Below, piece after piece: positions 6,561 to 20,188 of a stretch of DNA of 64,000 nucleotides. The notes under the pieces were generated by a model. That model had not been told where the DNA came from, ran no database searches, and was given only the letters and a program-made list of their open reading frames with translations. Both the position numbers and the translations under genes were made by a program. Positions within the stretch are counted from its first letter, which is position 1. Every line of letters starts with the position of its first letter. This DNA comes from an uncultured Sphingobacteriales bacterium (GTDB taxonomy: Bacteria > Bacteroidota > Bacteroidia > Chitinophagales > Chitinophagaceae): positions 1-64,000 of the forward strand of contig CALKHN010000013.1 of assembly GCA_937991535.1 (NCBI GenBank), read 5' to 3'.

Positions 6561-7220
6561 TTACCCCAAAAACCAGTACGCCATCCATTGACTTAAAAAG
6601 CCTGCAATCAATCCAAATACAATATCTCCCATCCGGTGATCGGAAACAATAAGACGTGAGGTACAGATTAGTCCTGAAATAAAAATGGCAATTGCCAGGG
6701 GAATATTTACAAAACCGGAAGAAGTATATAACAGTACAGTAAATAAACCCATTAAACCGCCGGCGCCTGTTGCATGCATGCTTATTTTAAAAAAAATATT
6801 CGCAACAAAATCAATGATCACAGCAAGAAAAATACCAAGGCTCATTTGAGCCATAATTACGGGTATACCCGGTTTATTCCTAAACACATAAAAGGTCCAG
6901 AAAAAAAAGACCATACTTATGGCATACAGTATAATCCTTTCTTTCTGTGTTTTGAGATAAACAGACTGAACGAAACCCAATGCTTTACATAAAAGCACAG
7001 ATAACAGAGGAAAAAAGATACTATTAATAATATAAATAAAAAGCACCTGCGTTTTCGCCAGTACATTCATTCCAATAAAATATTCGGGATCAATGTAAAC
7101 AAGGTAAATGGCCATATATAATCCAACCAGCAATGGATGGAAAAGCCAGGAAATAAAATGAGCGCCTGTTCTTACCACCGGTAATACAGTGGCGGTATCA
7201 GGCGCAAAGTGGCTATTCAT
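6561..7220 (-). CDS. PAP2 superfamily phosphatase (membrane)
   Basis: Multi-TM protein with the motifs SMHATGAG (PSGH-like) and SRLIVSDHRMGD (SRx5Hx3D). Confidence 0.6.
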   Translation of the reverse strand: MNSHFAPDTATVLPVVRTGAHFISWLFHPLLVGLYMAIYLVYIDPEYFIGMNVLAKTQVLFIYIINSIFFPLLSVLLCKALGFVQSVYLKTQKERIILYAISMVFFFWTFYVFRNKPGIPVIMAQMSLGIFLAVIIDFVANIFFKISMHATGAGGLMGLFTVLLYTSSGFVNIPLAIAIFISGLICTSRLIVSDHRMGDIVFGLIAGFLSQWMAYWFLG

Positions 7221-8701
7221 AATTGTTTTCTTAAGCGTGCTACCGGAATATTCATCTGTTCCCGGTATTTGGCTACTGTTCTCCGGGCAATATTATATCC
7301 TTTCTGTTGCAGCAATTCTGTAAGCCGTTCATCACTCAGCGGTTTTTTCTTGCTTTCTCCTTCTACCATATCACTTAATATTTTCTTTACCTCCCGTGTA
7401 GAAACTTCTTCACCACTGTCTGTACTCAAAGATTCGCTAAAAAAGAATTTAAGCCGGTATGTACCAAATTCTGTTTGTACAAATTTGCTGTTCGCCACCC
7501 GGCTTACCGTGGAAATATCCAATCCCGTACGTTCGGCAATATCTTTTAAAATCATCGGCTTTAACGTGGTTTCATCACCTGTAAGAAAAAATTCATACTG
7601 GTAATCCATTATAGCATGCATGGTAGTAAACAAGGTGTTTTGTCGTTGCTTAATAGCATCAATAAACCACTTGGCAGCATCAATTTTCTGTTTAATAAAA
7701 ATGACCGCTTCTTTCTGCCGTTTATCCTTTTTACTTCCCCGGTCATATTCTTTAAGCATATCTCTGTAACCCTCGCTGATACGCAGATCCGGCGCATTCT
7801 TCGAATTAAGTGTGAGTTCCAGTTTATTGGTATTATTATGAATAAAGAAGTCGGGAATAATATAGCTTTCTCCTTTATTGGTGTCGCCTACATTTCCCCC
7901 TGGTTTAGGATTAAGCCGGATGATTTGATTAATAGCAAGCTTAAGATCTTCGTCTGTCAGGTTTAACCCTCTTTGTATCTTTTCGTAATGTTTTTTGGTA
8001 AACTCATCAAAGTAATCCGAAAGTATACTGATCGCAATATCCACTTCCCGGCCGTCTTGTCTTTTCCGTTCCAACTGCAACAGAAGGCATTCTCTTAAAT
8101 CCCGTGCACCTATTCCGGGCGGATCAAACCGCTGTATCTCTTTTACCAGCAAAGCTATTTCTTCTTCAGTAGCAGCAATATTCTGCCGGAAAGCCAAATC
8201 ATCTGTAATGGCTCCAAAATCTCTTCTTAAATATCCGTCATCATCTATACTTCCCACTATATGCTCCGCAATTTTTCTTTGCTTTTCATCCAAATTCAGC
8301 ATACTGAGCTGTTCCAGCAAAGATTCATGAAAAGTACTTTCAATTTTAAAGGGCAGTGTTTGTTTTTCGTCAATTTCCGGGTAGTTCTCGTCTTTCAACC
8401 TGTAATCAGCTACATCATCATCTTCGCCCACATATTCACTTATATCAATATTATCATATTCATCCTCACTGCCTTCTGCCTCAAAATCGTCCTCTTTATC
8501 ACTTTCAAATTCATCAATCAGTTCTCCCTCGCCGGCATCGTTGTCTTCCTCATTTGCCTCAAGCGCAGGATTTTCTTCCATCTCTTCTTTAATTCTTTCT
8601 TCAAGGTTGGCAGTAGGAACCTGCAGCAATTTCATGAGTTGAATTTGCTGGGGTGATAGTTTTTGTAACAGCTTTTGTTGTAAACTCTGACTCAGAGCCA
8701 T
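7217..8701 (-). CDS. rpoN: RNA polymerase sigma-54 factor RpoN
   Basis: C-terminal RpoN box ARRTVAKYREQMNIP, an acidic region and a Gln-rich N-terminus. Start chosen at MALSQSLQQKL (ATG at 8701) rather than the ORF-track start at 8761. Confidence 0.9.
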   Translation of the reverse strand: MALSQSLQQKLLQKLSPQQIQLMKLLQVPTANLEERIKEEMEENPALEANEEDNDAGEGELIDEFESDKEDDFEAEGSEDEYDNIDISEYVGEDDDVADYRLKDENYPEIDEKQTLPFKIESTFHESLLEQLSMLNLDEKQRKIAEHIVGSIDDDGYLRRDFGAITDDLAFRQNIAATEEEIALLVKEIQRFDPPGIGARDLRECLLLQLERKRQDGREVDIAISILSDYFDEFTKKHYEKIQRGLNLTDEDLKLAINQIIRLNPKPGGNVGDTNKGESYIIPDFFIHNNTNKLELTLNSKNAPDLRISEGYRDMLKEYDRGSKKDKRQKEAVIFIKQKIDAAKWFIDAIKQRQNTLFTTMHAIMDYQYEFFLTGDETTLKPMILKDIAERTGLDISTVSRVANSKFVQTEFGTYRLKFFFSESLSTDSGEEVSTREVKKILSDMVEGESKKKPLSDERLTELLQQKGYNIARRTVAKYREQMNIPVARLRKQL

Positions 8702-9170
8702 AGTCGAATATATAATTATTGGAAACCCCGTAAATAATTTGAAAAAATGATGCGCCTCCACAAAAATCAGGCCGTAAATTTAAGTACAAAACGTATTAAC
8801 ATCACTTATATCGCTTTGTTTTATTTGGATGTTAACAATTCTTTCTTATTTGAACCGGTCATTTCATCACTTTAACCGGACTGGCATCACCTTGCAAAAG
8901 ACAACCGGAGGGAACAAACCAGGGTTGAAGCAATACGCGATAATAAGCATTTCCAACCTACATTTTACAATTGTATGATCACCCAGCTAACACTAAATTT
9001 CTTCTTCTGCCGTTTATTTAAAAAAGGAGTTTTGTAATTGACCGGCATTTCCGTATGCACCTAAAACCGGTTCTTTTATTTTTGAGCAAACATTTAATTT
9101 TAGCGTGGAAATTTTATATTTAGGCCTGGCACTTTTGAATGTATAAACCCGATGCTGTAAATAACAGATT

Positions 9171-9941
9171 ATGAACCCGAGGCCGCTTGCAAACATATCT
9201 ATACTGCTGGTAGAAGACAACGAAATGAACACGCTTTTAGCGTCAGCTATAATACAGGGAACTGGTGCAAAAGTTACGGAAGCCGACAATGGTATGGATG
9301 CTGTACAACTTTTGCGAAACCGCCCTTTTGACCTGGTATTAATGGATTTGCATCTGCCGGTAATGGATGGGTTTGAAACAACGAGGTACATCAGAAAAAA
9401 TCTTTCCCAAACCATTCCCATAATCGCTATAACCGCCAATGTAGTTAATGGAGAAGAAGAAAAATGTTTAGAAGCCGGGATGAACGGATTTATTTCAAAG
9501 CCTTATACAGAAAAAGATTTGCTTGATAAAATTTCAACCTGTATTCCTTTTAAAAATGGTATGGCCGAAAAATTTGTTCCAGCAACTGCTAACCCGGACG
9601 CTGCTCTTTACAGCCTGTCTTTCCTTAAAGATGTTAGTAAAGGAAACCGGGATATATTGCAACAAATGATTCTTGTGTTTACTGAACAGGTGTCTTTGGC
9701 GGTAAATGAGCTAAAAATTGCGTATAACAGTCACAGTTACGGTGAAATGTATGCTATTGCACATCGCATAAAGCCTGATATTGATAATCTGAATATAACT
9801 TCGCTGAAAGACAATATCAGGGAAATTGAGGTGTTTGCAGAACAAAAGAAGGATGGGCCGCTCCTTAAAAATCTTATTGTTAACCTGGATAATACAATTC
9901 AGCAAGTAGTGAAGGAATTAAAAGTAAATGTGCTGTTATAG
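9171..9941 (+). CDS. Response regulator receiver domain fused to a C-terminal HPt (histidine phosphotransfer) domain
   Basis: Receiver motifs (LLVEDN, MDLHLPVMDG, K105) plus an HPt-like helix with AIAHRIKPD. Confidence 0.7.
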   Translation: MNPRPLANISILLVEDNEMNTLLASAIIQGTGAKVTEADNGMDAVQLLRNRPFDLVLMDLHLPVMDGFETTRYIRKNLSQTIPIIAITANVVNGEEEKCLEAGMNGFISKPYTEKDLLDKISTCIPFKNGMAEKFVPATANPDAALYSLSFLKDVSKGNRDILQQMILVFTEQVSLAVNELKIAYNSHSYGEMYAIAHRIKPDIDNLNITSLKDNIREIEVFAEQKKDGPLLKNLIVNLDNTIQQVVKELKVNVLL

Positions 9942-12205: not shown

Positions 12206-12233
12206 CCCCGCAGGAAATTGCGGGGTTTTTTAT
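12206..12233 (+). terminator. Rho-independent terminator (CCCCGCA-ggaaat-TGCGGGG + T6)
   Basis: 7 bp GC-rich stem, 6 nt loop and a U-tract, seen directly in the sequence. Confidence 0.7.
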
Positions 12234-12446
12234 TTTAAGTGAAGTTATAAAATAAAAATGCTGAAGTCTTTAGAACATAAACGATTTACGATTCCAATGC
12301 GGAATACACAGCTATCATTATCTGTACGCTATTGGCATGTGCAGGCGAACAACAGCATTGTGCCTGCAGGCAATAAAGAGGATAGCAAACATAAACGACC
12401 GTGGTATAACTATACCTAGCCTGTATTTAACAGGCACAATGAAAGG

Positions 12447-12480
12447 AACCCGGTTGCAGTAAACGACCGGGTTTTTTGTT
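12447..12480 (+). terminator. Rho-independent terminator (AACCCGGT-11nt-ACCGGGTT + T6)
   Basis: 8 bp stem followed by TTTTTT, immediately upstream of the tRNA array. Confidence 0.65.
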
Positions 12481-12489
12481 GAATTACAA

Positions 12490-12561
12490 GGTTCGCTGGT
12501 GTAACGGTTAACATCACAGATTGTCGATCTGTTGCTATGGGTTCGATTCCCGTGCGAACCG
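12490..12561 (+). tRNA. tRNA-Asp (anticodon GTC)
   Basis: Acceptor GGTTCGC/GCGAACC. D-arm GTGT..ACAT. Anticodon stem ACAGA/TCTGT with loop TTGTCGA. T-loop TTCGATT. No encoded CCA. Confidence 0.7.
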
Positions 12562-12566
12562 CTGAA

Positions 12567-12639
12567 TGTTGGATGGTGCAATGGTTGAGCATTTCAGCAT
12601 TTGAAGCTGAAGATGCTGGTTCGAGTCCGGCTCCAACAA
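12567..12639 (+). tRNA. tRNA-Gln (anticodon TTG)
   Basis: Acceptor TGTTGGA/TCCAACA. Anticodon stem TCAGC/GCTGA with loop ATTTGAA. T-arm GCTGG-TTCGAGT-CCGGC. Confidence 0.7.
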
Positions 12640-12646
12640 CAAAACG

Positions 12647-12720
12647 TAGGCTTTAGCTTAACCGGTAAAGCGCCACACTGCGAATGTGGAGAAATGAGTT
12701 CGGGTCTCAAAGTCAACCAA
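12647..12720 (+). pseudogene. Degenerate tRNA-like element (Arg-like, anticodon GCG) without a convincing acceptor stem
   Basis: Good D-arm GCTT-AACCGGTA-AAGC. Anticodon stem CCACA/TGTGG with loop CTGCGAA. T-loop TTCGGGT. No 7 bp acceptor pairing could be found. Confidence 0.3.
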
Positions 12721-12742
12721 TGCGACCTGGTGTAAGGCAATA

Positions 12743-12815
12743 TGGCCCGTAGCTCAATGGTTAGAGTATCCGGCTTTTAACCGGAGGGTTGTGAGTTCGA
12801 GTCACGGGGCCAACG
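12743..12815 (+). tRNA. tRNA-Lys (anticodon TTT), with irregular acceptor/T-arm
   Basis: TAGCTCAATGGTTAGAG D-arm. Anticodon stem TCCGG/CCGGA with loop CTTTTAA. The 3' acceptor strand CGGGGCCA carries an extra G relative to the 5' strand TGGCCCG. Confidence 0.5.
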
Positions 12816-12817
12816 AT

Positions 12818-12890
12818 GGACGAATAGCTCCAATGGCAGAGCATTGGTTTGAAGCACCAACTGTGCCGCTTCGAATCCGGTTTCGTCCAC
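12818..12890 (+). tRNA. tRNA-Phe (anticodon GAA)
   Basis: Perfect acceptor GGACGAA/TTCGTCC. D-arm GCTC..GAGC. Anticodon stem TTGGT/ACCAA with loop TTGAAGC. T-loop TTCGAAT with a C-C mismatch closing the T-stem. Confidence 0.7.
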
Positions 12891-12926
12891 ACAGAAAAAG
12901 ATTTTAAATACCGGTTAAGGCATAAA

Positions 12927-13412
12927 ATGGAACAACAGCAAAAATGGAGGAAATTATCCGGCGATAGCATTCAACAGCCGATTGAAGACGAAATAAGAAC
13001 TGTGATCATAAGAGAAAAAGAGATGGGGCATTCTTTAAAAGTATGCATTGGTACCGACAGCCAGGTAAAGGGCAGGGAAACTGAATTTGCCACTGTTATT
13101 GTTTTCATCCGGAAGGGCAGAGGCGGCTTCATGTATATACACAATGAAGTCACTGAACAAAAAATGAGCATCAAACAGCGGATGTTGCTCGAAGTGGCAA
13201 AAAGTATTGAAGTAGCTTATGCACTGTGCAGGATTTTTACTTTGTACAATGTAGATATGGAAGTACATGCTGACATCAACACCAATCCAAACTTTAAAAG
13301 CAATGATGCATTGAAGGACGCGATGGGGTATATTATGGGAATGGGTTTTGCGTTTAAGGCGAAACCGGAAGCGTTTGCAAGTTCAAGCTGTGCTAATAAA
13401 GTGGTGCAGTAG
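12927..13412 (+). CDS. RNase H-like YkuK family (DUF458) protein
   Basis: IGTDSQ motif, ~160 aa. The pattern TVIVF..KGRGG...HADINTNP...GF.FKAKPEAFASS matches my memory of YkuK/DUF458. The start was moved to the ATG at 12927 because the ORF-track start at 12849 overlaps tRNA-Phe. Confidence 0.55.
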   Translation: MEQQQKWRKLSGDSIQQPIEDEIRTVIIREKEMGHSLKVCIGTDSQVKGRETEFATVIVFIRKGRGGFMYIHNEVTEQKMSIKQRMLLEVAKSIEVAYALCRIFTLYNVDMEVHADINTNPNFKSNDALKDAMGYIMGMGFAFKAKPEAFASSSCANKVVQ

Positions 13413-13452
13413 AAATTGTCAATCCACTACTGGAAGTCTTGTTAATGCGAAT

Positions 13453-13650
13453 CACTCCTTAGCATAAAAGGAAGTGCTACAGAAAAAGTTACGGAGCCGC
13501 GGAGTGCCCGGAAGATGCCGTTCAGACTGTTCGTTTGAATGGACAGAATTTGCAGTTGCACCGAAATGTGAAAGACCAGAGTAGGGAAGCGCATTTACAG
13601 CCGGACTATTGCTACAAAAGAAAATATGGGTTCGAATTCCGTAGGAGTGA
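13453..13650 (+). ncRNA. ~200 nt tRNA-like element: paired acceptor ends, D-arm and T-arm, with a ~125 nt insertion replacing the anticodon arm
   Basis: 5' CACTCCT-TA-GCAT-AAAAGGAA-GTGC (acceptor 5' strand, U8A9, D-arm). 3' ATGGG-TTCGAAT-TCCGT-AGGAGTG-A (T-arm, acceptor 3' strand exactly complementary to CACTCCT, discriminator). Direct repeats GCTACAGAAAAAG / GCTACAAAAGAAAA flank the internal segment. Confidence 0.35.
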
Positions 13651-13917
13651 CAAAAAAATTAAAATAGACTTTACTATGCAAATAGATTGCAAAGTTGTGT
13701 TAGAGGTTTGTTTTGTCAAATAAAAACAATAGTTCTTTAAAATAAAATAAATTCCTTTTCCTCTTTGTAAAGGATGGAGGAGCTTCAAAAGCTTGCTTAA
13801 CGGTAAGATGGGAACCGGCATGTTAGCAGTAAACCGGATGTGTGTTTTAAAAGCATCATAGTGCAGCGGTAGTAACCGGCTGTATGCTGTTGCGCCAATA
13901 TGTATTTCCCACCACAC

Positions 13918-13952
13918 CCTGTGGGCCAGGGGTTCGAGTCCCTTTCCCGCCT
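13918..13952 (+). pseudogene. tRNA 3'-fragment (anticodon-stem 3' strand, T-arm AGGGG-TTCGAGT-CCCTT, acceptor TCCCGCC)
   Basis: Seen directly. No complementary 5' acceptor strand lies upstream. A D-arm-like GTGCAGCGGTAGTAAC lies ~40 nt upstream. Confidence 0.4.
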
Positions 13953-13954
13953 CA

Positions 13955-14014
13955 GGTGGGATAGCTCAGCGGTTAGAGCAACAGGCAATTGCGGGTTCGA
14001 ATCCCGCTCCCGCT
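13955..14014 (+). ncRNA. 60 nt mini-tRNA-like element lacking the anticodon arm
   Basis: GGTGGGA-TA-GCTCAGCGGTTAGAGC-AACAGGCAATT-GCGGG-TTCGAAT-CCCGC-TCCCGCT. Acceptor pairs with two G·U, canonical D-arm and T-arm, 11 nt linker instead of the 17 nt anticodon arm. Confidence 0.4.
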
Positions 14015-14018
14015 GAAA

Positions 14019-14060
14019 AGCGGGATAGTTCAATGGTAGAACACAACACTTCAGATGTTG
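14019..14060 (+). pseudogene. tRNA 5'-fragment with UCA (opal-reading) anticodon, no T-arm or 3' acceptor
   Basis: AGCGGGA-TA-GTTC-AATGGTA-GAAC-A-CAACA-CTTCAGA-TGTTG. The 5 bp anticodon stem is perfect and the loop is CTTCAGA, so positions 34-36 read TCA. Downstream sequence has no T-loop. Confidence 0.4.
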
Positions 14061-14371
14061 GGTAAAGAAGTACACCGCTTCTTAAAAAATGGTGACAACG
14101 TAAAGTAAGGATTGTTTATCGGCCGGTTTATAAAAGTGAATATGTTGTAAAGCATATTTACAGCAAAAATCCGGCAAGCCGGGAAATAGCCAGTATGTTC
14201 TGATTATAATAATGAGCAGCAACACATTTTCTTACATCGTTTTTCTGCTTTTGGGCAGGTAAAAGGTAAGAAACGGTATTGATTAACATTATATAACACA
14301 ACATCCGTTATTGAAGGTGATAAACAATCCGGACTTTAATATTACAAAAGACGATTTTAAAAGATATACTG

Positions 14372-15475
14372 ATGAAAAATGTAAAAGTAACCGCCTACCA
14401 GGTTGGATTGGTTTTTAAAAATGGCGTGTATCAGCGAATGCTGAATAAAGGAAGCTACTGGTTCTGGAGCAATGAAACCGTGCAGTTGTTTGATATAACC
14501 AAACCATTCAACGCACCAGTGGAATTGAATATATTGTTGAAAGATGCTGCACTTGCTGAGGCATTGCTTGTGCTGGATGTAAAAGACAATGAAATCGCTT
14601 TACATTATAAAAACGGTTTGCTGGAAGCAGTATTCGGTGCTGGTCGTTATGCCTTTTGGAAAGGCGCTGTTGAGTATAAATTCATAAAGGCAGATATTGG
14701 AAAGGTTGAGATCACTGAACCTGTAGACCGTACGGTATTGTTACATCGTTTGGTTGCTCCATTTGTTCGTAGCGTAAGTGTGGAAAGCTTTGAAAAGGCT
14801 GTATTGTTTGTTGATGGGAAATTTGTGCAGATTTTGCAGAGTGGCGTTTATTACTGGTGGAAGAACAGCATAGCAGTGCATGTGGGTAAGGTAGATGCCC
14901 GTCAGCAGCAACTGGAAATAAACGGACAGGAAATTCTGACCAAAGATAAAGCGGCATTGCGCATCAACGCCTGGGCGCAATATCAGGTAACTGATATTGA
15001 AAAGGCCTTGCTGCAAAACAAAGAATACGACAGGCAATTGTATGTGGCATTTCAACTTGCATTGCGGGAATATGTCGCCGGCTTTGGATTTGATGAATTG
15101 CTGGAGAAAAAAGAAGCCATTACCCCTTTCATTTTGCAAAGTATACAGAAAAACGCTGAAGCATTGGGTATATTGGTGAATGGCTTCGGTATCCGTGATA
15201 TCATATTGCCGGGCGATGTAAAGGAGATCATGAACCAGGTATTGATCGCTGAAAAGAAAGCGCAGGCAAATACCATCATGCGGCGGGAAGAAACTGCCTG
15301 CACCCGTAGCTTGCTGAATACTGCCAGGCTGATGGAAGAAAATGCGATGTTGTGGAAGCTGAAAGAAATGGAATATGTAGAAAAGATCGCGGACAAGATC
15401 AGCAATATCAGCGTGAGCGGAAACGGCGTATTGATTGAGCAGTTGAAGGATATCTTTGTACCGAATAAACAGTGA
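14372..15475 (+). CDS. SPFH/band-7 (slipin-like) domain protein
   Basis: C-terminal half matches the SPFH pattern (ILTKDKAALRINAWAQYQV...RDIILPGDVKEIMNQVLIAEKKAQAN). No N-terminal TM helix. Confidence 0.7.
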   Translation: MKNVKVTAYQVGLVFKNGVYQRMLNKGSYWFWSNETVQLFDITKPFNAPVELNILLKDAALAEALLVLDVKDNEIALHYKNGLLEAVFGAGRYAFWKGAVEYKFIKADIGKVEITEPVDRTVLLHRLVAPFVRSVSVESFEKAVLFVDGKFVQILQSGVYYWWKNSIAVHVGKVDARQQQLEINGQEILTKDKAALRINAWAQYQVTDIEKALLQNKEYDRQLYVAFQLALREYVAGFGFDELLEKKEAITPFILQSIQKNAEALGILVNGFGIRDIILPGDVKEIMNQVLIAEKKAQANTIMRREETACTRSLLNTARLMEENAMLWKLKEMEYVEKIADKISNISVSGNGVLIEQLKDIFVPNKQ

Positions 15476-15570: not shown

Positions 15571-16767
15571 ATGATTAATATAGAGGATAAGACCCAGAAT
15601 GAAATGGGCGAATTGATTACAATATTTCAAAGTTGTTGTGAATTTCATTTTACAAATAGATTTAATGAGCATAAATTTCTTTTTTTTGACGCGCTTCCCT
15701 TTGACAATTTGGGAACAAAATATAGTACGGAATTAGTTAGCAGAAGATTTAGTTGGAAAGGAACTCCCACTATTGTTAGGAAAATACATAAAGGCATAGA
15801 TGCAAAAGAGGGCGAAGAGGAATATAAATTTGAACAGAAATGTTGCGTAGATTACTCTTTCAAAATAGGTTCAATTATTTGTTCTCTAGTCAATAATAAA
15901 GAGCTGACGTTTATTGCTACTACATTTAGTCCTTTTGGAGTAACGTTTTTCCCCTCATTTCATGAATGTCAAACTCAAGTGTTAGATTATTTAACTGAAA
16001 ATAAGATCGAACTAAAAAAACAACTAAATCTCCTACATATTGACGAACAAGAATATGATAATTCGAATATTGGAGCTGCGTTTTTTACCAATGTAATTAG
16101 GAAGCAGCGAATAAACAAGCAAAGTAACAATGGAATAAGCCATTTAAATTATTATTTTGAAATAGCGAATTGTCATTGGCAAATCGAAGACTGTCTCTTA
16201 AAGGCCGCTTATTATTTTAAATATACAACTGATTTTTTATCAAAGAGAATTGATGAAAACGATGTTACCTTTTTTATGCCAACCATGAACAATTATGATA
16301 ATCAATATCTGCTTTATATAGGGTTCGGCTTTGAAAGAATCTATAGTTTTTGGGACAGAATGGCTATTCTATTGCACAACTTTGAGAATTTAAACCTTAA
16401 ACAAAAAAATCTGTCTTTTGATCGTTATATGCAAGGTTTTAAAAAAACAAATAATTGTAATCTGAATAAAAATTCTCAATATTCCTTATGGCTACAAGAA
16501 TTTTATGAAAAGTCATTTAAGCCAATGATTGAATATCGCCATAGGATTGTGCATTTTCAATTCACTCATGATTGGGCAGGAATATTAACCGCCAAGTTTA
16601 GTAGTATCGCACAAGAAAACATTACAAATAAAAATAGATTAGTAGAATTAAAAAAGGAATTCGAAGGGCTTCTTAAACTTTTACATGATAATTACTTGCG
16701 CTGTAAAGAAGGCTTCGTAAATGTGCTGAAATTAATAGACGAGATACAATTGTCTATATTAACATAA
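15571..16767 (+). CDS. AT-rich hypothetical protein with C-terminal Rx4H motif (HEPN-like candidate)
   Basis: 398 aa ORF visibly more AT-rich than its neighbours. C-terminal MIEYRHRIVHFQ contains R-x4-H preceded and followed by helical-looking segments. No other recognisable domain. Confidence 0.35.
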   Translation: MINIEDKTQNEMGELITIFQSCCEFHFTNRFNEHKFLFFDALPFDNLGTKYSTELVSRRFSWKGTPTIVRKIHKGIDAKEGEEEYKFEQKCCVDYSFKIGSIICSLVNNKELTFIATTFSPFGVTFFPSFHECQTQVLDYLTENKIELKKQLNLLHIDEQEYDNSNIGAAFFTNVIRKQRINKQSNNGISHLNYYFEIANCHWQIEDCLLKAAYYFKYTTDFLSKRIDENDVTFFMPTMNNYDNQYLLYIGFGFERIYSFWDRMAILLHNFENLNLKQKNLSFDRYMQGFKKTNNCNLNKNSQYSLWLQEFYEKSFKPMIEYRHRIVHFQFTHDWAGILTAKFSSIAQENITNKNRLVELKKEFEGLLKLLHDNYLRCKEGFVNVLKLIDEIQLSILT

Positions 16768-16770
16768 TGT

Positions 16771-17535
16771 GTGCATATGAAAAATATAATAACAGCATTA
16801 TCTGAAATCGGACAAAAGAAAAACATCAAAATACTTCACGCCTGCGAAACAGGTAGCAGGGCGTGGGGTTTTCCTTCGCCGGATAGCGATTATGATGTGA
16901 GGTTTATTTATATGCATGAGCGGGATTGGTATCTGTCCCTAAGTCAGCGCAAAGACACGATAGAATATATGGATGACGATCTGGACATAACAGGCTGGGA
17001 TCTGAAAAAATGTCTGAATTTGTTAAAGAAATCAAATGTCCCACTGATAGAACGGTTTCAGTCTCCGTTTGAATATTATGCAGTGCCGGGATTTAAGGAC
17101 GAGTTTAAAAAGTTGATAGAAAGTTATTATTCGCCAACGGCGGTTTTCTTTCATCACTATTCATTAGCCCATAAGTTTTGGGAGGACATGATAGGAAAGG
17201 ATGATTTTAAATTGAAAGGCTTTTTTTACCTGGTGCGGTCTTTACTTTCCTGCAACTGGATCATGCATGACAAAACTGTATTGCCCATGCATATAGAAGG
17301 ATTGATGCGGTACTCGGATGAAAAAATCAATACCCCGCTAAGGGAATTGGTGCAATTGAAGTTAGGTGTAGGCGAAAAATATCTTCATAGCAAAGACAGT
17401 GTAATGGAAGTATGGATATTGCAATTATTGGAAAAGCTGGAAATATCAAAACAAAAACTTGGTGTAAACCAAACTGATATGTCGTTATTAAATGAATTCT
17501 TTTTAAAAATGCTGTATGCAAAAGCTGACTATTGA
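16771..17535 (+). CDS. Pol-beta superfamily nucleotidyltransferase (COG3541 / RtcB-associated 'RlaP'-like)
   Basis: GSRAWGFPSPDSDYDVRF motif (G[S]x9-13DxD NTase signature). 3 nt from the previous gene and overlapping the next. Confidence 0.65.
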   Translation: MHMKNIITALSEIGQKKNIKILHACETGSRAWGFPSPDSDYDVRFIYMHERDWYLSLSQRKDTIEYMDDDLDITGWDLKKCLNLLKKSNVPLIERFQSPFEYYAVPGFKDEFKKLIESYYSPTAVFFHHYSLAHKFWEDMIGKDDFKLKGFFYLVRSLLSCNWIMHDKTVLPMHIEGLMRYSDEKINTPLRELVQLKLGVGEKYLHSKDSVMEVWILQLLEKLEISKQKLGVNQTDMSLLNEFFLKMLYAKADY

Positions 17536-18595
17536 CTGGATAAAAGATAATGGGTTATTGGTATTTGAAGCCATCACCGGTAGTCGGGCGTATGGGTTGG
17601 ATACTCCAAAATCTGACACAGATATTAGAGGAGTATTTGTATTACCCAAAAATATGTTTTATGGATTGGAATATACCGGGCAGGTTAATAATGCTACCAA
17701 TGATATTGTGTACTATGAATTGAAAAGATTTATAGAGTTGCTTTCAAAAAACAACCCGAATATACTGGAAATGCTGAATACACCAGAAAGCTGCGTATTG
17801 CAAAAACATTCAATAATGGACGGGATGAAGCCTGCACTTTTTCTGTCTAAGCTGTGCAAGAAAACTTTTGCTAACTATGCTTATACACAAATAAAAAAAG
17901 CATATGGATTGGAAAAGAAGATAGTGAATCCTGTGGGCGAAGAAAAAAAATCGGTATTGGATTTTTGTTTTGTGCATGAGGAGAATGAAGCTGTAGGATT
18001 AAAAGAATATATGAAGGAGAAAAATTTACGCCAAGAGAAAATGGGATTGACTGCTATAGCACATATGCGGGATTGCTACAATTTGTTTTATTCGGATGAC
18101 TTGCCATATTCCGGTATAATGAGAAAGGAAGAGTCGAATGAAGTATGCTTGAGCAGTGTACCCAAAAATGAAAAGCCCATAGCTATGCTTTATTTTAACA
18201 AGGATGGCTACTCAGTATACTGTAAGAAATACAAAGAATACTGGGGGTGGGTAGAAAAAAGAAGCGAGGAGCGATATCAAACAACCATGACCCATGGCAA
18301 GAATTATGATTCAAAAAGCATGATGCATGTATTCAGATTATTATTGATGGCAAGGGAAATAGCTACAGAAAGAAGGGTCAATGTTTGGCGGAAAGACAGG
18401 GAATTCCTGTTATCTATAAAAGAAGGAAAATTTGAGTACGATGAATTGTTGCAAAAAGCAGAAGCCTTAAAAGATGAGTTGCCAATCTTATATCAAAATT
18501 CGGATTTGAAAGCAGAACCGGATATTGACGTAATTGATGCCCTATTAATAAAAATGAGAGGAATGTATTACAATGAAGTAAAGGATCATCAGTGA
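17516..18595 (+). CDS. Pol-beta superfamily nucleotidyltransferase, paralog of the preceding gene
   Basis: GSRAYGLDTPKSDTDIRGV motif. 359 aa. Start overlaps the upstream gene by 20 nt. Confidence 0.65.
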   Translation: MQKLTIDWIKDNGLLVFEAITGSRAYGLDTPKSDTDIRGVFVLPKNMFYGLEYTGQVNNATNDIVYYELKRFIELLSKNNPNILEMLNTPESCVLQKHSIMDGMKPALFLSKLCKKTFANYAYTQIKKAYGLEKKIVNPVGEEKKSVLDFCFVHEENEAVGLKEYMKEKNLRQEKMGLTAIAHMRDCYNLFYSDDLPYSGIMRKEESNEVCLSSVPKNEKPIAMLYFNKDGYSVYCKKYKEYWGWVEKRSEERYQTTMTHGKNYDSKSMMHVFRLLLMAREIATERRVNVWRKDREFLLSIKEGKFEYDELLQKAEALKDELPILYQNSDLKAEPDIDVIDALLIKMRGMYYNEVKDHQ

Positions 18596-18748
18596 GCCGA
18601 AACCCCGAACGGAGCGTCGCAACAAAAGTACGATCAGTGCTCAAAAGCTGGTACAAAAAATCATAAAGTCACAAAAACTCCGGGCTCACAAAACAGCCCT
18701 TTGTGTTACCCCGTGTTATGTGCCTCCGTGGTTCAAAAAAGAAAAACA

Positions 18749-20188
18749 ATGAGCAAATTAAAAATAACAGGAAAAGAATTACGCGCTACCGGCTACCCGC
18801 AGGGCCCGGTGATCAGCGTGGCAATGAATGTGATGCAGAAACATTACAAGCATCACACAAAAGAGAAAGTGATGGAAATATTGAAGCGTGTATTGGAAAG
18901 CCCGGTACAATATAAAGATGATGTCGTATTGGCAGTGATAGCGGAGCAATTATTGCCCAAAGCGCCAAAAGAGGACGCAACAATTTCATTGAACAACCAG
19001 GGTATTCCGTTCAATGTATTCGGACAGGAACACATTGAAGAAGGCGCCCTGCACCAGATGTATGTCGCGGCTAAATTGCCGGTGGCAGTTGCGGGCGCAT
19101 TGATGCCTGATGCACACAGCGGTTATGGCTTGCCGATAGGCGGTGTTCTGGCAACGGATAACGCCGTGATACCGTATGGCGTGGGAGTGGACATTGGCTG
19201 CCGCATGTGCCTGAGTGTTTTCGATATCAATCCAAAAGAGCTTACGCAGCGGGAAACTTCTTTTGCAAGGGAATTAAATGAAGCCACCCTTTTTGGAAGC
19301 GGCGCACAGTTTGACCGGGCATCAGATCATGAAGTAATGGAACATGCCGCATTTTATGAAATGCCTTTGCTGAAAAGTTTGCACGAACGCGCATGGAAAC
19401 AATTGGGATCTTCCGGAAGTGGCAATCATTTCGTGGAGTTTGGCATAGTGGATATTGCAGAAAAGGATCCGGTACTGGGCATTGAACCCGGAAGTTATGT
19501 GGGATTGTTATCGCATTCCGGTTCCAGGGCGCTGGGTGCTACTATTGCAAATCATTATACTAAAATTGCGATCAGCAAAAGACGTTTACCACAGGATGCA
19601 AAAAATCTGGCGTGGTTGAATATGGATGAAGAAGCAGGAATAGAATACTGGATCGCCATGAACCTGGCGGGTGATTATGCTTCTGCATGTCATCACATTA
19701 TTCACGAAAAAATTTCGAAACAGTTAGGACGTAAACCTCTTAAGAGGATAGAGAATCACCACAACTTTGCATGGAAGGAACAATGGGAAGGTAAGGAGGT
19801 AATTGTACACCGTAAAGGCGCTACACCTGCCGGAAAGGATGTATTGGGCATCATTCCCGGCTCTATGACAGCGGATGGGTATATTGTAAAAGGGAAAGGC
19901 GAACCGGCGGCTGTTAACTCGGCTTCCCACGGCGCAGGAAGGTTGATGAGCCGTACCAGAGCAATGCAGTCCATTACCGAAAATGCATTGAAGCAGGAAC
20001 TGAAAAAGCATAGCGTGAAGCTGATCGGCGGAGGGCTGGATGAAGCGCCTTTCGCCTATAAGGATATTCATGTGGTAATGCAAAGTCAGCGGCAGTTGGT
20101 AGATGTGGTGGGAAGATTCACTCCCAGAATCGTAAAAATGGACGGCGCAAAGCATAAAACATGGGGAAAGAAGACAAGAGAAATGTAG
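18749..20188 (+). CDS. rtcB: RNA-splicing ligase RtcB (3'-phosphate/5'-hydroxyl RNA ligase), long form (~479 aa)
   Basis: NHHN (IENHHNFAWKE), SHGAGR (ASHGAGRLMSR) and several His/Cys metal ligands. The ORF-track start is a TTG at 18701. The ATG at 18749 (MSKLKITGKEL) is preferred. Confidence 0.9.
   Translation: MSKLKITGKELRATGYPQGPVISVAMNVMQKHYKHHTKEKVMEILKRVLESPVQYKDDVVLAVIAEQLLPKAPKEDATISLNNQGIPFNVFGQEHIEEGALHQMYVAAKLPVAVAGALMPDAHSGYGLPIGGVLATDNAVIPYGVGVDIGCRMCLSVFDINPKELTQRETSFARELNEATLFGSGAQFDRASDHEVMEHAAFYEMPLLKSLHERAWKQLGSSGSGNHFVEFGIVDIAEKDPVLGIEPGSYVGLLSHSGSRALGATIANHYTKIAISKRRLPQDAKNLAWLNMDEEAGIEYWIAMNLAGDYASACHHIIHEKISKQLGRKPLKRIENHHNFAWKEQWEGKEVIVHRKGATPAGKDVLGIIPGSMTADGYIVKGKGEPAAVNSASHGAGRLMSRTRAMQSITENALKQELKKHSVKLIGGGLDEAPFAYKDIHVVMQSQRQLVDVVGRFTPRIVKMDGAKHKTWGKKTREM

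What the first reader, a model, noticed from the sequence alone, without database searches (positions are those of the whole stretch)
13453..13650. ~200 nt tRNA-like RNA candidate with complementary acceptor ends, D-arm and T-arm but a ~125 nt insert instead of an anticodon arm
CACTCCT at 13453 is exactly complementary to AGGAGTG at 13643. The 5' end is followed by U8-A9 and a D-arm-like GCAT..GTGC, and the 3' end is preceded by a T-arm ATGGG-TTCGAAT-TCCGT. The internal segment is flanked by direct repeats GCTACAGAAAAAG/GCTACAAAAGAAAA. This is the architecture of a tRNA mimic, in the manner of Y-RNA/YrlA or tmRNA-like tRNA domains, or of a tRNA gene split by an insertion such as an intron or MITE. 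Bacterial Y-RNA-like tRNA mimics are known to be encoded next to RtcB in some proteobacteria. Finding one here next to RtcB, but without a Ro60 gene, would be new.
Basis: seen in the sequence. Interest (0 to 1): 0.7.

Follow-up and report, generated by a model that had tools for sequence, protein, structure and literature searches.

The report
New tRNA-shaped RNA in RNA-repair loci
The flagged 198 bases encode a real, conserved RNA with the ends and elbow of a tRNA and a compact extra domain of about 130 bases on its anticodon side; it travels with a bacterial RNA-repair gene cluster and spare-tRNA arrays, and it matches no catalogued RNA family.

Summary
The element is one member of a family of at least 85 copies: 11 Chitinophagaceae genomes and 74 metagenome contigs. 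Its fold is supported by heavy covariation, with 97% of cells paired against 36-45% in slid controls, and 36 of 48 pairs show compensatory changes.

It has a 7-bp acceptor stem, U8, a D-arm with G18G19, a T-arm with UUCGAAU and a discriminator base. Two conserved expansions (P1, and P3-P5 inside P2) dock on each other through a covarying base triple.

In 44 of 74 metagenome loci it lies with SPFH/Band-7, RtcB, RlaP or PF04308 genes or the YrlA-like RNA, on their strand. It can also fill a tRNA slot inside tRNA arrays (6-11 nt spacers), or stand alone behind a palindromic operator next to a WYL regulator.

It is not a tRNA, YrlA, tmRNA, intron or MITE by any test run.

The general idea, a tRNA-like RNA with Band-7 and RtcB and without Ro60, was predicted in 2016 (b7a-tRNA), so that part is not new. 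This RNA's architecture appears undescribed.

The most likely role is a tRNA-processed, stress-induced, Y-RNA-like cofactor or decoy. That function is inferred, not shown.

The parts
13453..13650 (+). The whole RNA ('element A'), 198 nt
   Evidence: The covariance-model match is 13453-13650 at 183.6 bits. It is 73-83% identical to copies in 10 other genomes.
13453..13459 (+). Acceptor stem, 5' strand. It pairs with 13643-13649. The discriminator is A13650 and no CCA is encoded.
   Evidence: All 7 pairs show compensatory changes, and 96% of cells are paired.
13462..13477 (+). D-arm: a 4-bp stem with loop AAAAGGAA carrying A14, G18, G19 and A21. It is preceded by U8-A9.
   Evidence: The stem is 99% paired. 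A-U/U-A and U-G/U-A/C-G exchanges occur, and the loop is invariant.
13478..13501 (+). P1 hairpin at the anticodon-arm position. The loop begins AAAAAG. The window copy has two A-C mismatches.
   Evidence: It is 98.3% paired in the model-based alignment, with C-G/U-A exchange (40/29). P1 has 5 of 5 pairs in 65 of 70 members but only 3 of 5 in the window.
13488..13488 (+). P1-loop nucleotide that forms a base triple with the P4a pair G13552-C13592
   Evidence: Three-way covariation gives only G.G-C (31) or U.A-U (37), with one exception. The state changes 11 times on a neighbour-joining tree, counting gap states.
13506..13511 (+). P2, 5' strand. It pairs with 13601-13606 and closes the inserted domain.
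   Evidence: Of 6 pairs, 4 have compensatory changes and 98% of cells are paired.
13518..13542 (+). P3 hairpin (about 10 bp)
   Evidence: All 9 scored pairs show compensatory changes.
13551..13593 (+). P4a/b/c and the variable hairpin P5. This part contains the invariant strands CACCGAAA and AGUAGGGAAGCG, a possible loop-E / sarcin-ricin-like AGUA/GAA motif.
   Evidence: The P4a pair switches perfectly between G-C (33) and A-U (40). P5 pairs covary. L072 and L109 carry an extra hairpin in the P4 bulge. The motif assignment is by inspection only.
13594..13600 (+). Junction UUUACAG (family consensus UUUAYAR), a relic anticodon-loop-like strand next to the P2 3' strand
   Evidence: Conservation is shown. 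Deleting P1 and P3-P5 in silico leaves a class-II-like cloverleaf.
13609..13622 (+). P6, a short hairpin in the variable-arm position. The window copy has one G-A mismatch.
   Evidence: Three pairs show compensatory changes, and a fourth pair was found by mutual information.
13626..13642 (+). T-arm: a 5-bp stem with the invariant loop UUCGAAU
   Evidence: It is 99.5% paired and 4 of 5 pairs have compensatory changes. The window has G53-U61 where 72 of 73 members have G-C.
13673..13694 (+). Degenerate copy of the palindromic operator (consensus CTGTGCAA-N5-TTGCACAG) within the promoter-like block S (13652-13745). In the window it precedes element B, not A.
   Evidence: Alignment of S copies. 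There is a single window match with 2 mismatches, against 0 expected by chance. The operator lies 47-76 nt upstream of A (farther in three loci) in 29 of 78 other loci.
13786..14100 (+). Element B, the companion YrlA-like RNA with two circularly permuted tRNA-like modules. It lies directly upstream of the SPFH gene.
   Evidence: It is present in 79 of 80 genome loci. RNAalifold finds compensatory changes in 61 of 86 pairs. Rfam YrlA gives only partial hits of 32-37 bits.
12490..12890 (+). Array of five tRNA genes (Asp, Gln, Arg, Lys, Phe) at the head of the cluster
   Evidence: ARAGORN and Rfam. Homologous arrays of 5-16 tRNAs occur in most related loci.
12927..13412 (+). PF04308 (RNase H-like, YkuK-type) gene, ending 40 nt before A
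   Evidence: Pfam E = 2.6e-37. The same gene-then-A order is seen in L092 and L110. The start at the first ATG is my reading.
14372..15475 (+). SPFH/Band-7 (slipin) gene
   Evidence: Pfam PF01145, E = 2.4e-30. No obvious membrane helix is seen by eye.
16771..18595 (+). Two RlaP-family nucleotidyltransferase genes (16771-17535 and 17516-18595)
   Evidence: Pfam PF10127, E = 1.8e-66 and 1.1e-26.
18701..20188 (+). RtcB RNA ligase gene
   Evidence: Pfam PF01139, E = 5.7e-82.

Best explanation
Element A is the gene for a stable, trans-acting tRNA mimic that belongs to the SPFH(Band-7)-RtcB-RlaP RNA-repair and tRNA-array system of Bacteroidota.

Shown:
- It is a conserved structured RNA.
- It keeps the parts of a tRNA that processing and tRNA-binding enzymes read: a 7-bp acceptor stem with a discriminator base, U8, the D-loop G18G19 and the T-loop UUCGAAU, which together form the elbow.
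- Its anticodon side is rebuilt into a compact domain of about 130 nt, in which the P1 loop docks on helix P4 through a base triple.
- It is encoded on the same strand as the system's genes.
- It can replace a tRNA in an array, with tRNA-like spacers on both sides.
- In many genomes it has its own promoter-like region with the same palindromic operator that precedes the companion YrlA-like RNA.

Inferred:
1. It is cut out of array, operon or leader transcripts by RNase P and a tRNA 3' end nuclease, and it receives CCA.
2. It is induced together with the repair regulon, probably under a WYL-type repressor.
3. It cannot decode, because it has no free anticodon hairpin.
4. It works as Y RNAs do with Ro60. 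The tRNA-like half engages tRNA-handling proteins (RtcB, RlaP or others). The grafted domain, with its invariant CACCGAAA / AGUAGGGAAGCG strands, binds a system protein such as the SPFH scaffold. The RNA thereby acts as an adaptor or gatekeeper for repair of damaged tRNAs.
For: Family and structure:
- Eleven genomic copies score 158-206 bits. The next hits, ordinary tRNAs, score 33 bits or less.
- All 74 metagenome matches to a short conserved motif turn out to be copies of the element; four are cut by a contig end, interrupted or divergent.
- 97.1% of cells are paired and the covariation score is 0.64, against about 0.1 for slid controls.
- The base triple is supported by three-way covariation.

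Context:
- 44 of 74 metagenome loci carry SPFH, RtcB, RlaP, PF04308 or element B. Eight more carry only tRNA arrays. Of 247 neighbouring features, 246 are on A's strand.
- Recurrent gene orders are A-B-SPFH and B-SPFH-A-RtcB/RlaP.
- A sits in tRNA slots with 6-11 nt spacers in L014, L020, L121, L129, L134, L139 and L146.

Regulation:
- The shared operator lies upstream of A in 29 of 78 loci.
- WYL-WCX regulator genes are divergent from A in L001, L138 and L154.

Precedent:
- YrlA is a tRNA mimic encoded with RtcB, and a Band-7-associated tRNA-like RNA has been predicted (bioRxiv 10.1101/312249).
- RlaP adds nucleotides to damaged tRNA (PMC12776372).
- Long tRNA arrays are co-regulated with rtcB in Anabaena (PMC8421152).
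Against: - There are no expression, processing or binding data. Everything about function is inference from anatomy and neighbourhood.
- A was found in only 10 of 80 related genomes within 4 kb of the SPFH gene, so it is dispensable for the core system, which always has element B.
- Unlike YrlA, it has free acceptor ends. That is not needed for an adaptor and hints at something else, such as CCA-end chemistry or aminoacylation.
- 22 of 74 metagenome loci show no system gene nearby. Most of these are short contigs, but some are long (L100, L151).
- The protein partner is unidentified.
- The loop-E-like motif is assigned by eye only.
Confidence: 0.45

Rival explanations
1. Decoy or sensor for anticodon nucleases. 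The RNA shows tRNA identity features and a conserved anticodon-loop-like strand (UUUAYAR) held in a rigid scaffold. It would titrate or trap a tRNA-cleaving toxin, or it would be cleaved itself and its fragments would signal to the WYL regulator. This would protect housekeeping tRNAs alongside the spare tRNAs of the array.
For: - The relic anticodon loop is conserved next to P2.
- A is accessory and patchy, as counter-defence parts often are.
- It is embedded among spare tRNAs.
- The arrays hold other odd tRNA-likes with altered anticodon arms.
- WYL regulator genes sit next to A.
- HEPN-like ORFs occur in the operon.
- A sponge role has been proposed for array tRNAs (PMC8421152), and a competitive-inhibitor role has been proposed for YrlA (PMC7790460).
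Against: - No cognate nuclease has been identified.
- Positions 35, 36 and 38 of the 'anticodon' vary (A/G, C/U, G/A), so no single tRNA species is mimicked.
- The strand lies in a multi-helix junction, not in a hairpin loop.
- A decoy does not obviously need an invariant domain of about 130 nt.
Confidence: 0.25
2. Intron-bearing pre-tRNA. The two inserted segments (P1 plus linker, and J2/3 through P4) are excised and the ends are joined by the operon's RtcB. The product would be a class-II-like tRNA of about 90 nt with anticodon UAC or UAU.
For: - In-silico removal of the two segments leaves a clean cloverleaf with a 6-bp stem and the 7-nt loop UUUACAG.
- ARAGORN in intron mode calls most members tRNA-Val(tac) or tRNA-Ile(tat) with an intron of about 110 nt.
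- RtcB is the splicing ligase of archaea and animals (established knowledge).
- A tRNA-Phe in array L146 has a 54-nt insert at position 37/38.
Against: - The 'intron' is the most conserved part. It covaries and makes a tertiary contact between the two segments.
- ARAGORN's anticodon stem has only 3-5 of 5 pairs and no covariation, whereas P1 is fully paired in 65 of 70 members.
- Excision would need four cuts and two ligations.
- There is no bulge-helix-bulge motif by inspection, and no splicing endonuclease, intron or ribozyme model match.
- The 'anticodon' changes between Val, Ile and Ala without matching identity changes; positions 3:70 stay C-G or U-A.
Confidence: 0.05
3. Cis-acting leader or riboswitch-like element that controls the downstream SPFH or RtcB genes.
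For: In several loci it lies directly upstream of B-SPFH or of RtcB.
Against: - Its position relative to genes is not fixed. It can be upstream of B, downstream of SPFH, inside tRNA arrays, or stand-alone next to unrelated genes.
- It has its own promoter/operator.
- Its ends are defined by a covarying acceptor stem.
Confidence: 0.03
4. Aminoacylated rescue RNA in the manner of tmRNA. The free acceptor end would be charged and the extra domain would act on stalled or damaged ribosomes.
For: - The acceptor end is free and the discriminator is mostly A.
- The variable-arm-like P6 resembles class II tRNAs, whose synthetases ignore the anticodon (established knowledge; not tested here).
Against: - There is no G3-U70, no reading frame or tag, and no SmpB-type context.
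- ARAGORN and Rfam find no tmRNA here.
- A bulky domain on the anticodon side would clash with the decoding site.
Confidence: 0.03
5. Chance complementarity, or a decaying tRNA pseudogene with a junk insertion.
For: - A single 7-nt complement 184 nt apart is not rare by chance.
- The window copy has three weakening substitutions.
Against: - There are 85 copies with full-length conservation and compensatory changes in every helix.
- The flanks are not conserved.
Confidence: 0.01

Closest known systems
YrlA (Y RNA-like A, Rfam RF02553)
   Same: - Both are bacterial tRNA mimics with T-arm, D-arm and acceptor stem, encoded in RtcB operons.
- YrlA is thought to be a cofactor that links a scaffold protein to tRNA-binding factors.
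- The companion element B of this locus (13786-14100) has YrlA's permuted topology.
   Different: - A has the normal, unpermuted tRNA order with free 5' and 3' acceptor ends.
- A has no Ro60-binding stem and no rsr gene nearby.
- A carries a domain of about 130 nt that YrlA lacks.
- Rfam YrlA gives no hit on A.
b7a-tRNA (Band-7-associated tRNA-like RNA; Burroughs & Aravind 2016, known here only through bioRxiv 10.1101/312249)
   Same: Both are predicted tRNA-like non-coding RNAs encoded with a Band-7/SPFH protein and RtcB instead of Ro60. A belongs to the same system-level class.
   Different: - b7a-tRNA is described as strongly resembling an authentic tRNA. A is 198 nt with two large expansions.
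- A is not always next to the Band-7 gene, whereas element B is (79 of 80 loci).
- The original definition could not be read, so identity with A or with B is unresolved. I judge B the likelier equivalent.
tmRNA
   Same: Both have a tRNA-like acceptor and T-arm with free ends, flanking a large internal domain, and both are matured by tRNA enzymes.
   Different: A has a full D-arm. It lacks G3-U70, a tag reading frame and a pseudoknot series, and it is half the size of tmRNA. ARAGORN and Rfam do not call it.
Class II tRNAs and intron-containing tRNAs
   Same: - A shares the acceptor, D- and T-arm architecture.
- P6 sits where a long variable arm would be.
- P2 plus UUUACAG looks like an interrupted anticodon arm.
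- ARAGORN's intron mode calls A a tRNA.
   Different: - There is no contiguous anticodon hairpin.
- The Rfam tRNA model does not match.
- The inserts are conserved, structured and interacting rather than removable spacers.
[quoted passage not shown]
   Same: A lives in or beside such arrays in Bacteroidota. In Anabaena the arrays are stress-induced and linked to RtcB.
   Different: That work describes ordinary, chargeable tRNAs and a few pseudogenes. The text passages I searched held no tRNA-like RNA with an appended domain.

Membership tests
tRNA (RF00005) | 7-bp acceptor stem with discriminator; D-arm with G18G19; T-arm with the T-loop | tested here: met
   The pairs covary, and the invariant loops AAAAGGAA and UUCGAAU are present.
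tRNA (RF00005) | Contiguous anticodon arm (5-bp stem, 7-nt loop with U33) and a score above the model threshold | tested here: not met
   No Rfam tRNA hit on 13453-13650 even at E <= 10. ARAGORN in default mode makes no call. Its intron-mode call rests on a stem with 3-5 of 5 pairs and no covariation.
YrlA (RF02553) | Match to the family model at or above the gathering score (69 bits) | tested here: not met
   There is no YrlA hit on A. The only hits, 32-37 bits, fall in element B.
YrlA (RF02553) | Circularly permuted tRNA-like domain with a closed acceptor hairpin, and 5'/3' ends forming the Ro60-binding stem | tested here: not met
   In A the acceptor strands are the two ends of the element and nothing closes them. 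In arrays, neighbouring tRNAs begin 6-11 nt away.
YrlA (RF02553) | Encoded next to rsr (Ro60/TROVE) | tested here: not met
   None of the 18 ORFs scanned against Pfam between 7.2 and 25.7 kb has a TROVE hit. The rest of the window was not scanned.
b7a-tRNA | tRNA-like RNA encoded with a Band-7/SPFH gene and RtcB | tested here: met
   The window order is A, B, SPFH, RlaP x2, RtcB. 44 of 74 metagenome loci carry system components.
b7a-tRNA | Sequence and structure as originally defined | not testable with these tools
   The defining paper is not held. There is no Rfam model. Only a one-paragraph secondary description is available.
tmRNA | G3-U70 alanine identity, tag reading frame, pseudoknots, D-loop without a stem | tested here: not met
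   Positions 3:70 are C-G (59) or U-A (10). A full D-stem is present. ARAGORN and Rfam make no tmRNA call.
Group I/II or bulge-helix-bulge tRNA intron | Ribozyme core or bulge-helix-bulge motif at the exon-intron junctions; the insert is dispensable for the mature RNA | tested here: not met
   No intron or ribozyme family matches at E <= 10 or at gathering score in 12 loci. Both junctions lie at one multi-helix junction, not across a 4-bp helix (inspection). The insert is the most conserved part.
MITE / insertion element in a tRNA gene | Target-site duplication, terminal inverted repeats, several dispersed copies of the insert alone | tested here: not met
   The putative duplication is not conserved. 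There is one copy in the window and one per locus, always as the whole element.

The most novel reading that the evidence does not exclude
The element is a bacterial split-personality pre-tRNA. Its two conserved inserts fold together into a processing domain, either a self-cleaving domain or one recognised by a protein. Their excision, followed by ligation by the co-encoded RtcB, releases a class-II-like tRNA (anticodon UAC/UAU) on demand. That would be the first RtcB-dependent tRNA splicing pathway in bacteria. A tRNA-Phe with a 54-nt insert at position 37/38 in a related array (L146) would belong to the same pathway.
Probability: 0.05. Interest if true: 0.9.

Novelty: new variant of a known kind. 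Interest (0 to 1): 0.62.

Why it matters
tRNA-like RNAs encoded with RtcB (YrlA, and the predicted b7a-tRNA) are known, but their job is still unclear. Here is a third, structurally distinct tRNA mimic of the same systems, with enough sequences to give a near-complete secondary structure and one tertiary contact.

It has three properties the others lack:
- It has the normal tRNA order with free ends.
- It can occupy a tRNA slot in stress-type tRNA arrays.
- It keeps what looks like a caged anticodon loop.

This ties together three topics that have been studied separately: RtcB repair operons, SPFH scaffolds and spare-tRNA arrays. It also gives a defined RNA for pull-downs, structure work and genetics in cultivable Chitinophagaceae. 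If it proves to be a decoy, a sensor or a spliced tRNA, it would show how bacteria defend their tRNA pools against anticodon nucleases.

Tried and rejected
- **Rfam.** At gathering score over the whole window, at E <= 10 over 12300-14400, and at gathering score over 12 other loci, nothing covers A. The weak MS2 and RefA1 hits are noise.
- **ARAGORN.** Default mode makes no call on A. Intron mode calls tRNA-Val(tac) with a 111-nt intron. I rejected this because its anticodon stem is not supported.
- **Single-sequence folding.** The z-score of -2.3 is suggestive only, and the predicted interior was partly wrong.
- **Direct repeats as a target-site duplication.** They are not conserved.
- **The tRNA-like hit at 13955-14015 (Rfam tRNA, 45.9 bits).** It reads across two closed acceptor hairpins of element B. 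That pairing is not kept in L001 or L014 (by inspection of the alignment).
- **Viral contigs, phage records and plasmid records.** No copy of A was found.
- **Reading the defining paper.** Burroughs & Aravind 2016 and the 2020 Y RNA review are not held. Further text searches for b7a-tRNA found nothing more.
- **Pedo-repair motif (RF01715).** It is in Rfam and does not match.
- **Defining b7a-tRNA from an enterobacterial rtcR-slipin locus (L155).** The intergenic region shows only a T-arm plus a hairpin, with no tRNA or YrlA hit, so this was inconclusive.
- **The 398-aa ORF as a hidden Ro60.** It has no Pfam, NCBIfam or PDB sequence match. It has an Rx4H motif instead.
- **A covarying partner for the UUUACAG junction.** None was found.
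Full report
**1. The observation**

The sequence at 13453-13650 reads as the first-stage reader said. It has a perfect 7-bp complement between the two ends, U8-A9, a D-arm GCAT/AAAAGGAA/GTGC, a T-arm ATGGG/UUCGAAU/TCCGT and a discriminator A.

Standard tools do not see it. ARAGORN and Rfam find five ordinary tRNAs at 12490-12890 and tRNA-like or YrlA-like fragments at 13920-14083, but nothing at 13453-13650, even at E <= 10. A single-sequence fold is only mildly better than shuffles (z = -2.3). The window alone therefore could not settle the matter.

**2. The locus**

Protein homologues place the window in the family Chitinophagaceae, closest to Agriterribacter and Terrimonas. On the + strand the order is as follows:

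- five tRNA genes;
- a PF04308 RNase H-like gene;
- the finding (element A);
- a spacer of about 90 nt (S);
- a conserved non-coding element of about 315 nt (B, 13786-14100);
- an SPFH/Band-7 (slipin) gene;
- a 398-aa ORF with no family match;
- two RlaP nucleotidyltransferase genes;
- RtcB.

None of the 18 ORFs scanned against Pfam between 7.2 and 25.7 kb has a Ro60/TROVE domain. No intrinsic terminator was found between 12230 and 14450. In the window, A has no promoter block of its own, so it is probably co-transcribed with the tRNAs and the PF04308 gene.

**3. Homologues**

Eighty loci were fetched with the SPFH protein, one genome per species. Element B is present in 79 of them, immediately upstream of the SPFH gene. 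Element A is present in 10.

A motif from A's most conserved stretch, joined to the T-loop, was then scanned. It found 74 metagenome contigs and no viral contig. Every one of the 74 contains a copy of the element; four are cut by a contig end, interrupted or divergent.

A covariance model built from 68 distinct sequences separates the family cleanly. True copies score 158-206 bits, and the best other hits, ordinary tRNAs, score 33 bits or less. The window has exactly one copy, at 13453-13650, scoring 183.6 bits. BLAST finds nothing similar in the plasmid or phage records.

**4. Structure**

RNAalifold and a hand-curated structure agree. In the model-based alignment (85 matches, 73 distinct):

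- 97.1% of cells form standard pairs, against 36-45% when partners are slid by 1-3 columns;
- the covariation score is 0.64 against about 0.1;
- 36 of 48 pairs have compensatory double changes;
- 0 of 500 shuffles reach the observed values.

The helices, with window coordinates, are:

- acceptor stem, 7 bp (13453-59 with 13643-49);
- D-arm (13462-77);
- P1, a 5-6-bp hairpin that starts where an anticodon stem would and has a 13-22-nt loop beginning WAAAAK (13478-13501);
- a linker, GAGU;
- P2, 6 bp (13506-11 with 13601-06), which closes a multi-helix junction holding P3 (13518-42) and P4a/b/c with the variable hairpin P5 (13551-93);
- a 7-nt junction strand UUUACAG (13594-13600);
- P6, a short hairpin in the variable-arm position (13609-22);
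- T-arm (13626-42).

Hundreds of G-U cells fix the + strand as the transcript. Two members (L072, L109) carry an extra hairpin in a P4 bulge, and others carry insertions in the P1 and P3 loops. Peripheral variation of this kind is typical of a functional structured RNA.

**5. A tertiary contact**

A mutual-information scan recovered the helices and one three-way covariation. The last conserved nucleotide of the P1 loop motif (G13488 in the window) and the P4a pair (G13552-C13592) occur only as G with G-C (31 sequences) or U with A-U (37 sequences), with a single exception.

On a neighbour-joining tree built without these columns, the state changes 11 times counting gap states. By my reading of the tree, about six of these are true switches. 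This is the signature of a base triple. It means the P1 loop is docked on P4, and the two 'inserted' segments form one compact domain.

The strands CACCGAAA and AGUAGGGAAGCG are invariant. By inspection they could form a loop-E / sarcin-ricin-like AGUA/GAA motif, a common protein-binding module. This was not tested.

**6. What it is not**

*Not a decoding tRNA.* There is no contiguous anticodon hairpin, and the Rfam tRNA model does not match.

*Not an intron-containing tRNA as ARAGORN reads it.* With intron search on, ARAGORN calls the window copy tRNA-Val(tac) with a 111-nt intron, and it makes similar calls for most members. The anticodon stem it uses, the P1 5' strand paired with the P2 3' strand, has 3-5 of 5 pairs and no covariation. 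P1 itself is fully paired in 65 of 70 members.

A cleaner formal reading exists. Deleting P1 plus the linker, and the stretch from J2/3 to P4, leaves a class-II-like cloverleaf with a 6-bp stem and the loop UUUACAG. I take this as an evolutionary trace of a tRNA ancestor rather than a splicing pathway, for these reasons:

- the 'introns' are the most conserved and interacting parts;
- four cuts and two ligations would be needed;
- both junctions lie at one multi-helix junction rather than in a bulge-helix-bulge motif;
- no intron or ribozyme model matches;
- the 'anticodon' drifts between UAC, UAU and UGC with no change in acceptor identity.

I keep splicing as a low-probability, high-interest rival.

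*Not YrlA.* The topology is unpermuted, there is no Ro-binding stem and there is no model hit.

*Not tmRNA.* Positions 3:70 are C-G or U-A, a full D-stem is present and there is no tag.

They are not conserved in other members, and the insert never occurs alone.

**7. Where it sits**

Of the 74 metagenome loci, 44 also carry SPFH, RtcB, RlaP, PF04308 or element B, 8 carry only tRNA arrays, and 22 carry none of these (most are short contigs). Of 247 neighbouring features, 246 are on A's strand. Three arrangements recur:

1. A-(S)-B-SPFH, as in the window and in most of the A-carrying genome loci.
2. B-SPFH-A-RtcB or RlaP, in L090, L130, L131, L135, L142 and L148.
3. A inside a tRNA array, taking the place of a tRNA with 6-11 nt spacers. 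Examples are tRNA-Pro|A|tRNA-Ala in L121, tRNA-Glu|A|tRNA-Arg in L134, A|tRNA-Gln in L014 and L020, and tRNA-Tyr|A in L129.

The third arrangement is strong indirect evidence that the acceptor stem ends are the mature ends, and that A is cut out by the enzymes that process tRNAs.

**8. Regulation**

The spacer S is a shared promoter-like block. It holds a palindrome (CTGTGCAA-N5-TTGCACAG), a TTTG motif and a short leader. S precedes both A and B in L001, L072, L073 and L077.

The palindrome lies upstream of A's first base in 29 of 78 loci, 47-76 nt away in most of them. In the window it occurs once, degenerate, before B only. WYL-WCX regulator genes lie divergently next to A in L001, L138 and L154. 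In many genomes, therefore, A is an independently transcribed and probably repressor-controlled gene, co-regulated with B.

**9. The companion RNA**

Element B folds into a 5' hairpin, a domain of about 110 nt, and two circularly permuted tRNA-like modules, each running T-arm, closed acceptor hairpin, D-arm. The second module is followed by an anticodon-like hairpin. Of 86 pairs, 61 have compensatory changes.

This is the topology of YrlA. Rfam's YrlA model matches parts of B at 32-37 bits, below the 69-bit threshold. The apparent 61-nt 'tRNA without an anticodon arm' at 13955-14015 is an artefact of reading across two acceptor hairpins.

**10. Comparison with what is known**

- YrlA is a tRNA mimic encoded with Rsr and RtcB. 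Its tRNA-like domain is a permuted tRNA with a closed acceptor stem (bioRxiv 10.1101/312249).
- The same paper reports that Burroughs & Aravind (2016) predicted a Band-7-associated tRNA-like RNA, b7a-tRNA, next to RtcB in bacteria that lack Rsr, and that it had never been validated.
- RlaP adds one or two nucleotides to damaged RNA 3' ends and restores chargeability of repaired tRNA (PMC12776372).
- Long tRNA arrays are stress-induced and co-regulated with rtcB in Anabaena, and a sponge role against tRNA nucleases has been suggested for them (PMC8421152).

The system in the window is thus a known kind. 'A tRNA mimic with RtcB but without Ro60' is not new in principle.

The 2016 paper is not held, so I cannot say whether b7a-tRNA corresponds to B (my guess, since B is the element always next to the Band-7 gene) or to A. 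An RNA described as strongly resembling an authentic tRNA is unlikely to be the 198-nt element A. No Rfam family covers A.

**11. How it most likely works**

*Shown:* A is a conserved, compactly folded RNA. It has an intact tRNA acceptor end and elbow and a rebuilt anticodon side. It lies in the repair and array system on the system's strand. It is exchangeable with a tRNA in arrays, and it often sits behind the regulon's operator.

*Inferred:* A matures through RNase P, 3' trimming and CCA addition. It is induced with the repair genes and cannot decode. It then acts in one of two ways:

- as a Y-RNA-like adaptor, with the tRNA half bound by tRNA-handling enzymes and the grafted domain bound by a system protein such as the SPFH scaffold (my best guess, about 0.45);
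- as a decoy or sensor for anticodon nucleases that displays a caged anticodon-like strand (about 0.25).

Its presence in only 10 of 80 genomes near the SPFH gene shows it is an accessory to a core system that always has B.

**12. State of the window copy**

The window copy has two A-C mismatches in P1, G-U instead of the near-invariant G53-C61, and a G-A mismatch in P6. It also lacks its own operator. It still scores mid-range for the family, so I regard it as probably functional but possibly under relaxed constraint.

**13. Verdict**

- The interpretation as a tRNA mimic in an RtcB locus is right. The YrlA, tmRNA, intron and MITE readings, and the claim of novelty in principle, are not.
- The element is a new structural variant within the known class of tRNA-like RNAs of RNA-repair systems.
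- Its fold is well supported, and its function is open to experiment.

Noticed in passing
window 13786-14100 (+): Element B is a non-coding RNA of about 315 nt, conserved upstream of the SPFH gene in 79 of 80 related genomes. It has a 5' hairpin, a domain of about 110 nt, and two circularly permuted YrlA-like tRNA modules: T-arm 13928-44, closed acceptor hairpin 13945-61, D-arm 13964-79; then T-arm 13991-14007, hairpin 14008-25, D-arm 14028-42 and an anticodon-like hairpin 14044-60. Rfam YrlA reaches only 32-37 bits. It is probably the real Band-7-associated RNA.
   Followed up: partly
window 13652-13745; operator 13673-13694: A promoter-like block carries the palindrome CTGTGCAA-N5-TTGCACAG. 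It precedes both A and B genes in other genomes and also occurs before a protein gene (L080:5125-5225). It looks like the operator of a regulon, and WYL-WCX regulator genes lie next to it in L001, L138 and L154.
   Followed up: partly
window 12490-12890 and L009-L079 (about 0.1-3 kb in locus coordinates): Arrays of 5-16 tRNA genes lie upstream of the PF04308 / AAA ATPase / SPFH / RtcB genes in 58 of 80 related loci. The order recurs (Asp-Gln-His ... Lys-Asn ... Phe). These look like the stress-type long tRNA arrays described in cyanobacteria, here physically fused to an RNA-repair operon.
   Followed up: partly
L014:426-519, L017:687-780, L020:703-796, L026:508-601 and about 12 more: A conserved tRNA-like element of about 94 nt directly follows tRNA-His in many arrays. 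It has normal acceptor, D- and T-arms but an anticodon arm about 12 bp long, with an internal loop (UAAGUAGC) and the loop CUUUCUGA. ARAGORN misses it in default mode and gives it inconsistent anticodons in intron mode.
   Followed up: partly
L146:2078-2203: A tRNA-Phe (anticodon GAA; Rfam tRNA 53 bits) has a 54-nt insertion exactly after position 37, the canonical intron site. It lies in an array that also holds a copy of A. The insertion is too short for a group I intron, and no ribozyme model matches.
   Followed up: partly
window 15571-16767 (+): A 398-aa ORF between the SPFH and RlaP genes has no Pfam, NCBIfam or PDB sequence match, low G+C, and a C-terminal EYRHRIVH (Rx4H) motif suggestive of a HEPN RNase. 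It is found in only one other locus (L037). L001 has a different ORF in the same place with a weak Swt1-like HEPN hit.
   Followed up: partly
L020:2224-3300, L001:200-1276: A 358-aa AAA-type ATPase gene lies between the PF04308 gene and B in L020, and upstream of the WYL regulator gene in L001. It is absent from that position in the window, where A sits between the PF04308 gene and B.
   Followed up: no
window 12230-12489 (+): A non-coding stretch of about 260 nt lies upstream of the tRNA array. It has two strong hairpins and a hairpin followed by a T-run at 12449-12480, immediately before tRNA-Asp. Rfam gives only a weak Thr_leader hit (23 bits). Its role is unknown.
   Followed up: no
L155:4660-4995 (Citrobacter freundii, rtcR-slipin intergenic region): An enterobacterial rtcR / slipin / nucleotidyltransferase locus has a sigma-54-like promoter followed by a T-arm (UGGGUUCGAUUCCCA) and a closed hairpin. 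Neither the tRNA nor the YrlA model matches. It may be a reduced relative of element B.
   Followed up: partly
window 7217-8761 (-) and 9171-9941 (+): A sigma-54 gene (rpoN) and a response-regulator gene lie a few kb upstream of the repair cluster. Enterobacterial rtc operons depend on sigma-54, but no sigma-54 promoter was seen here.
   Followed up: no
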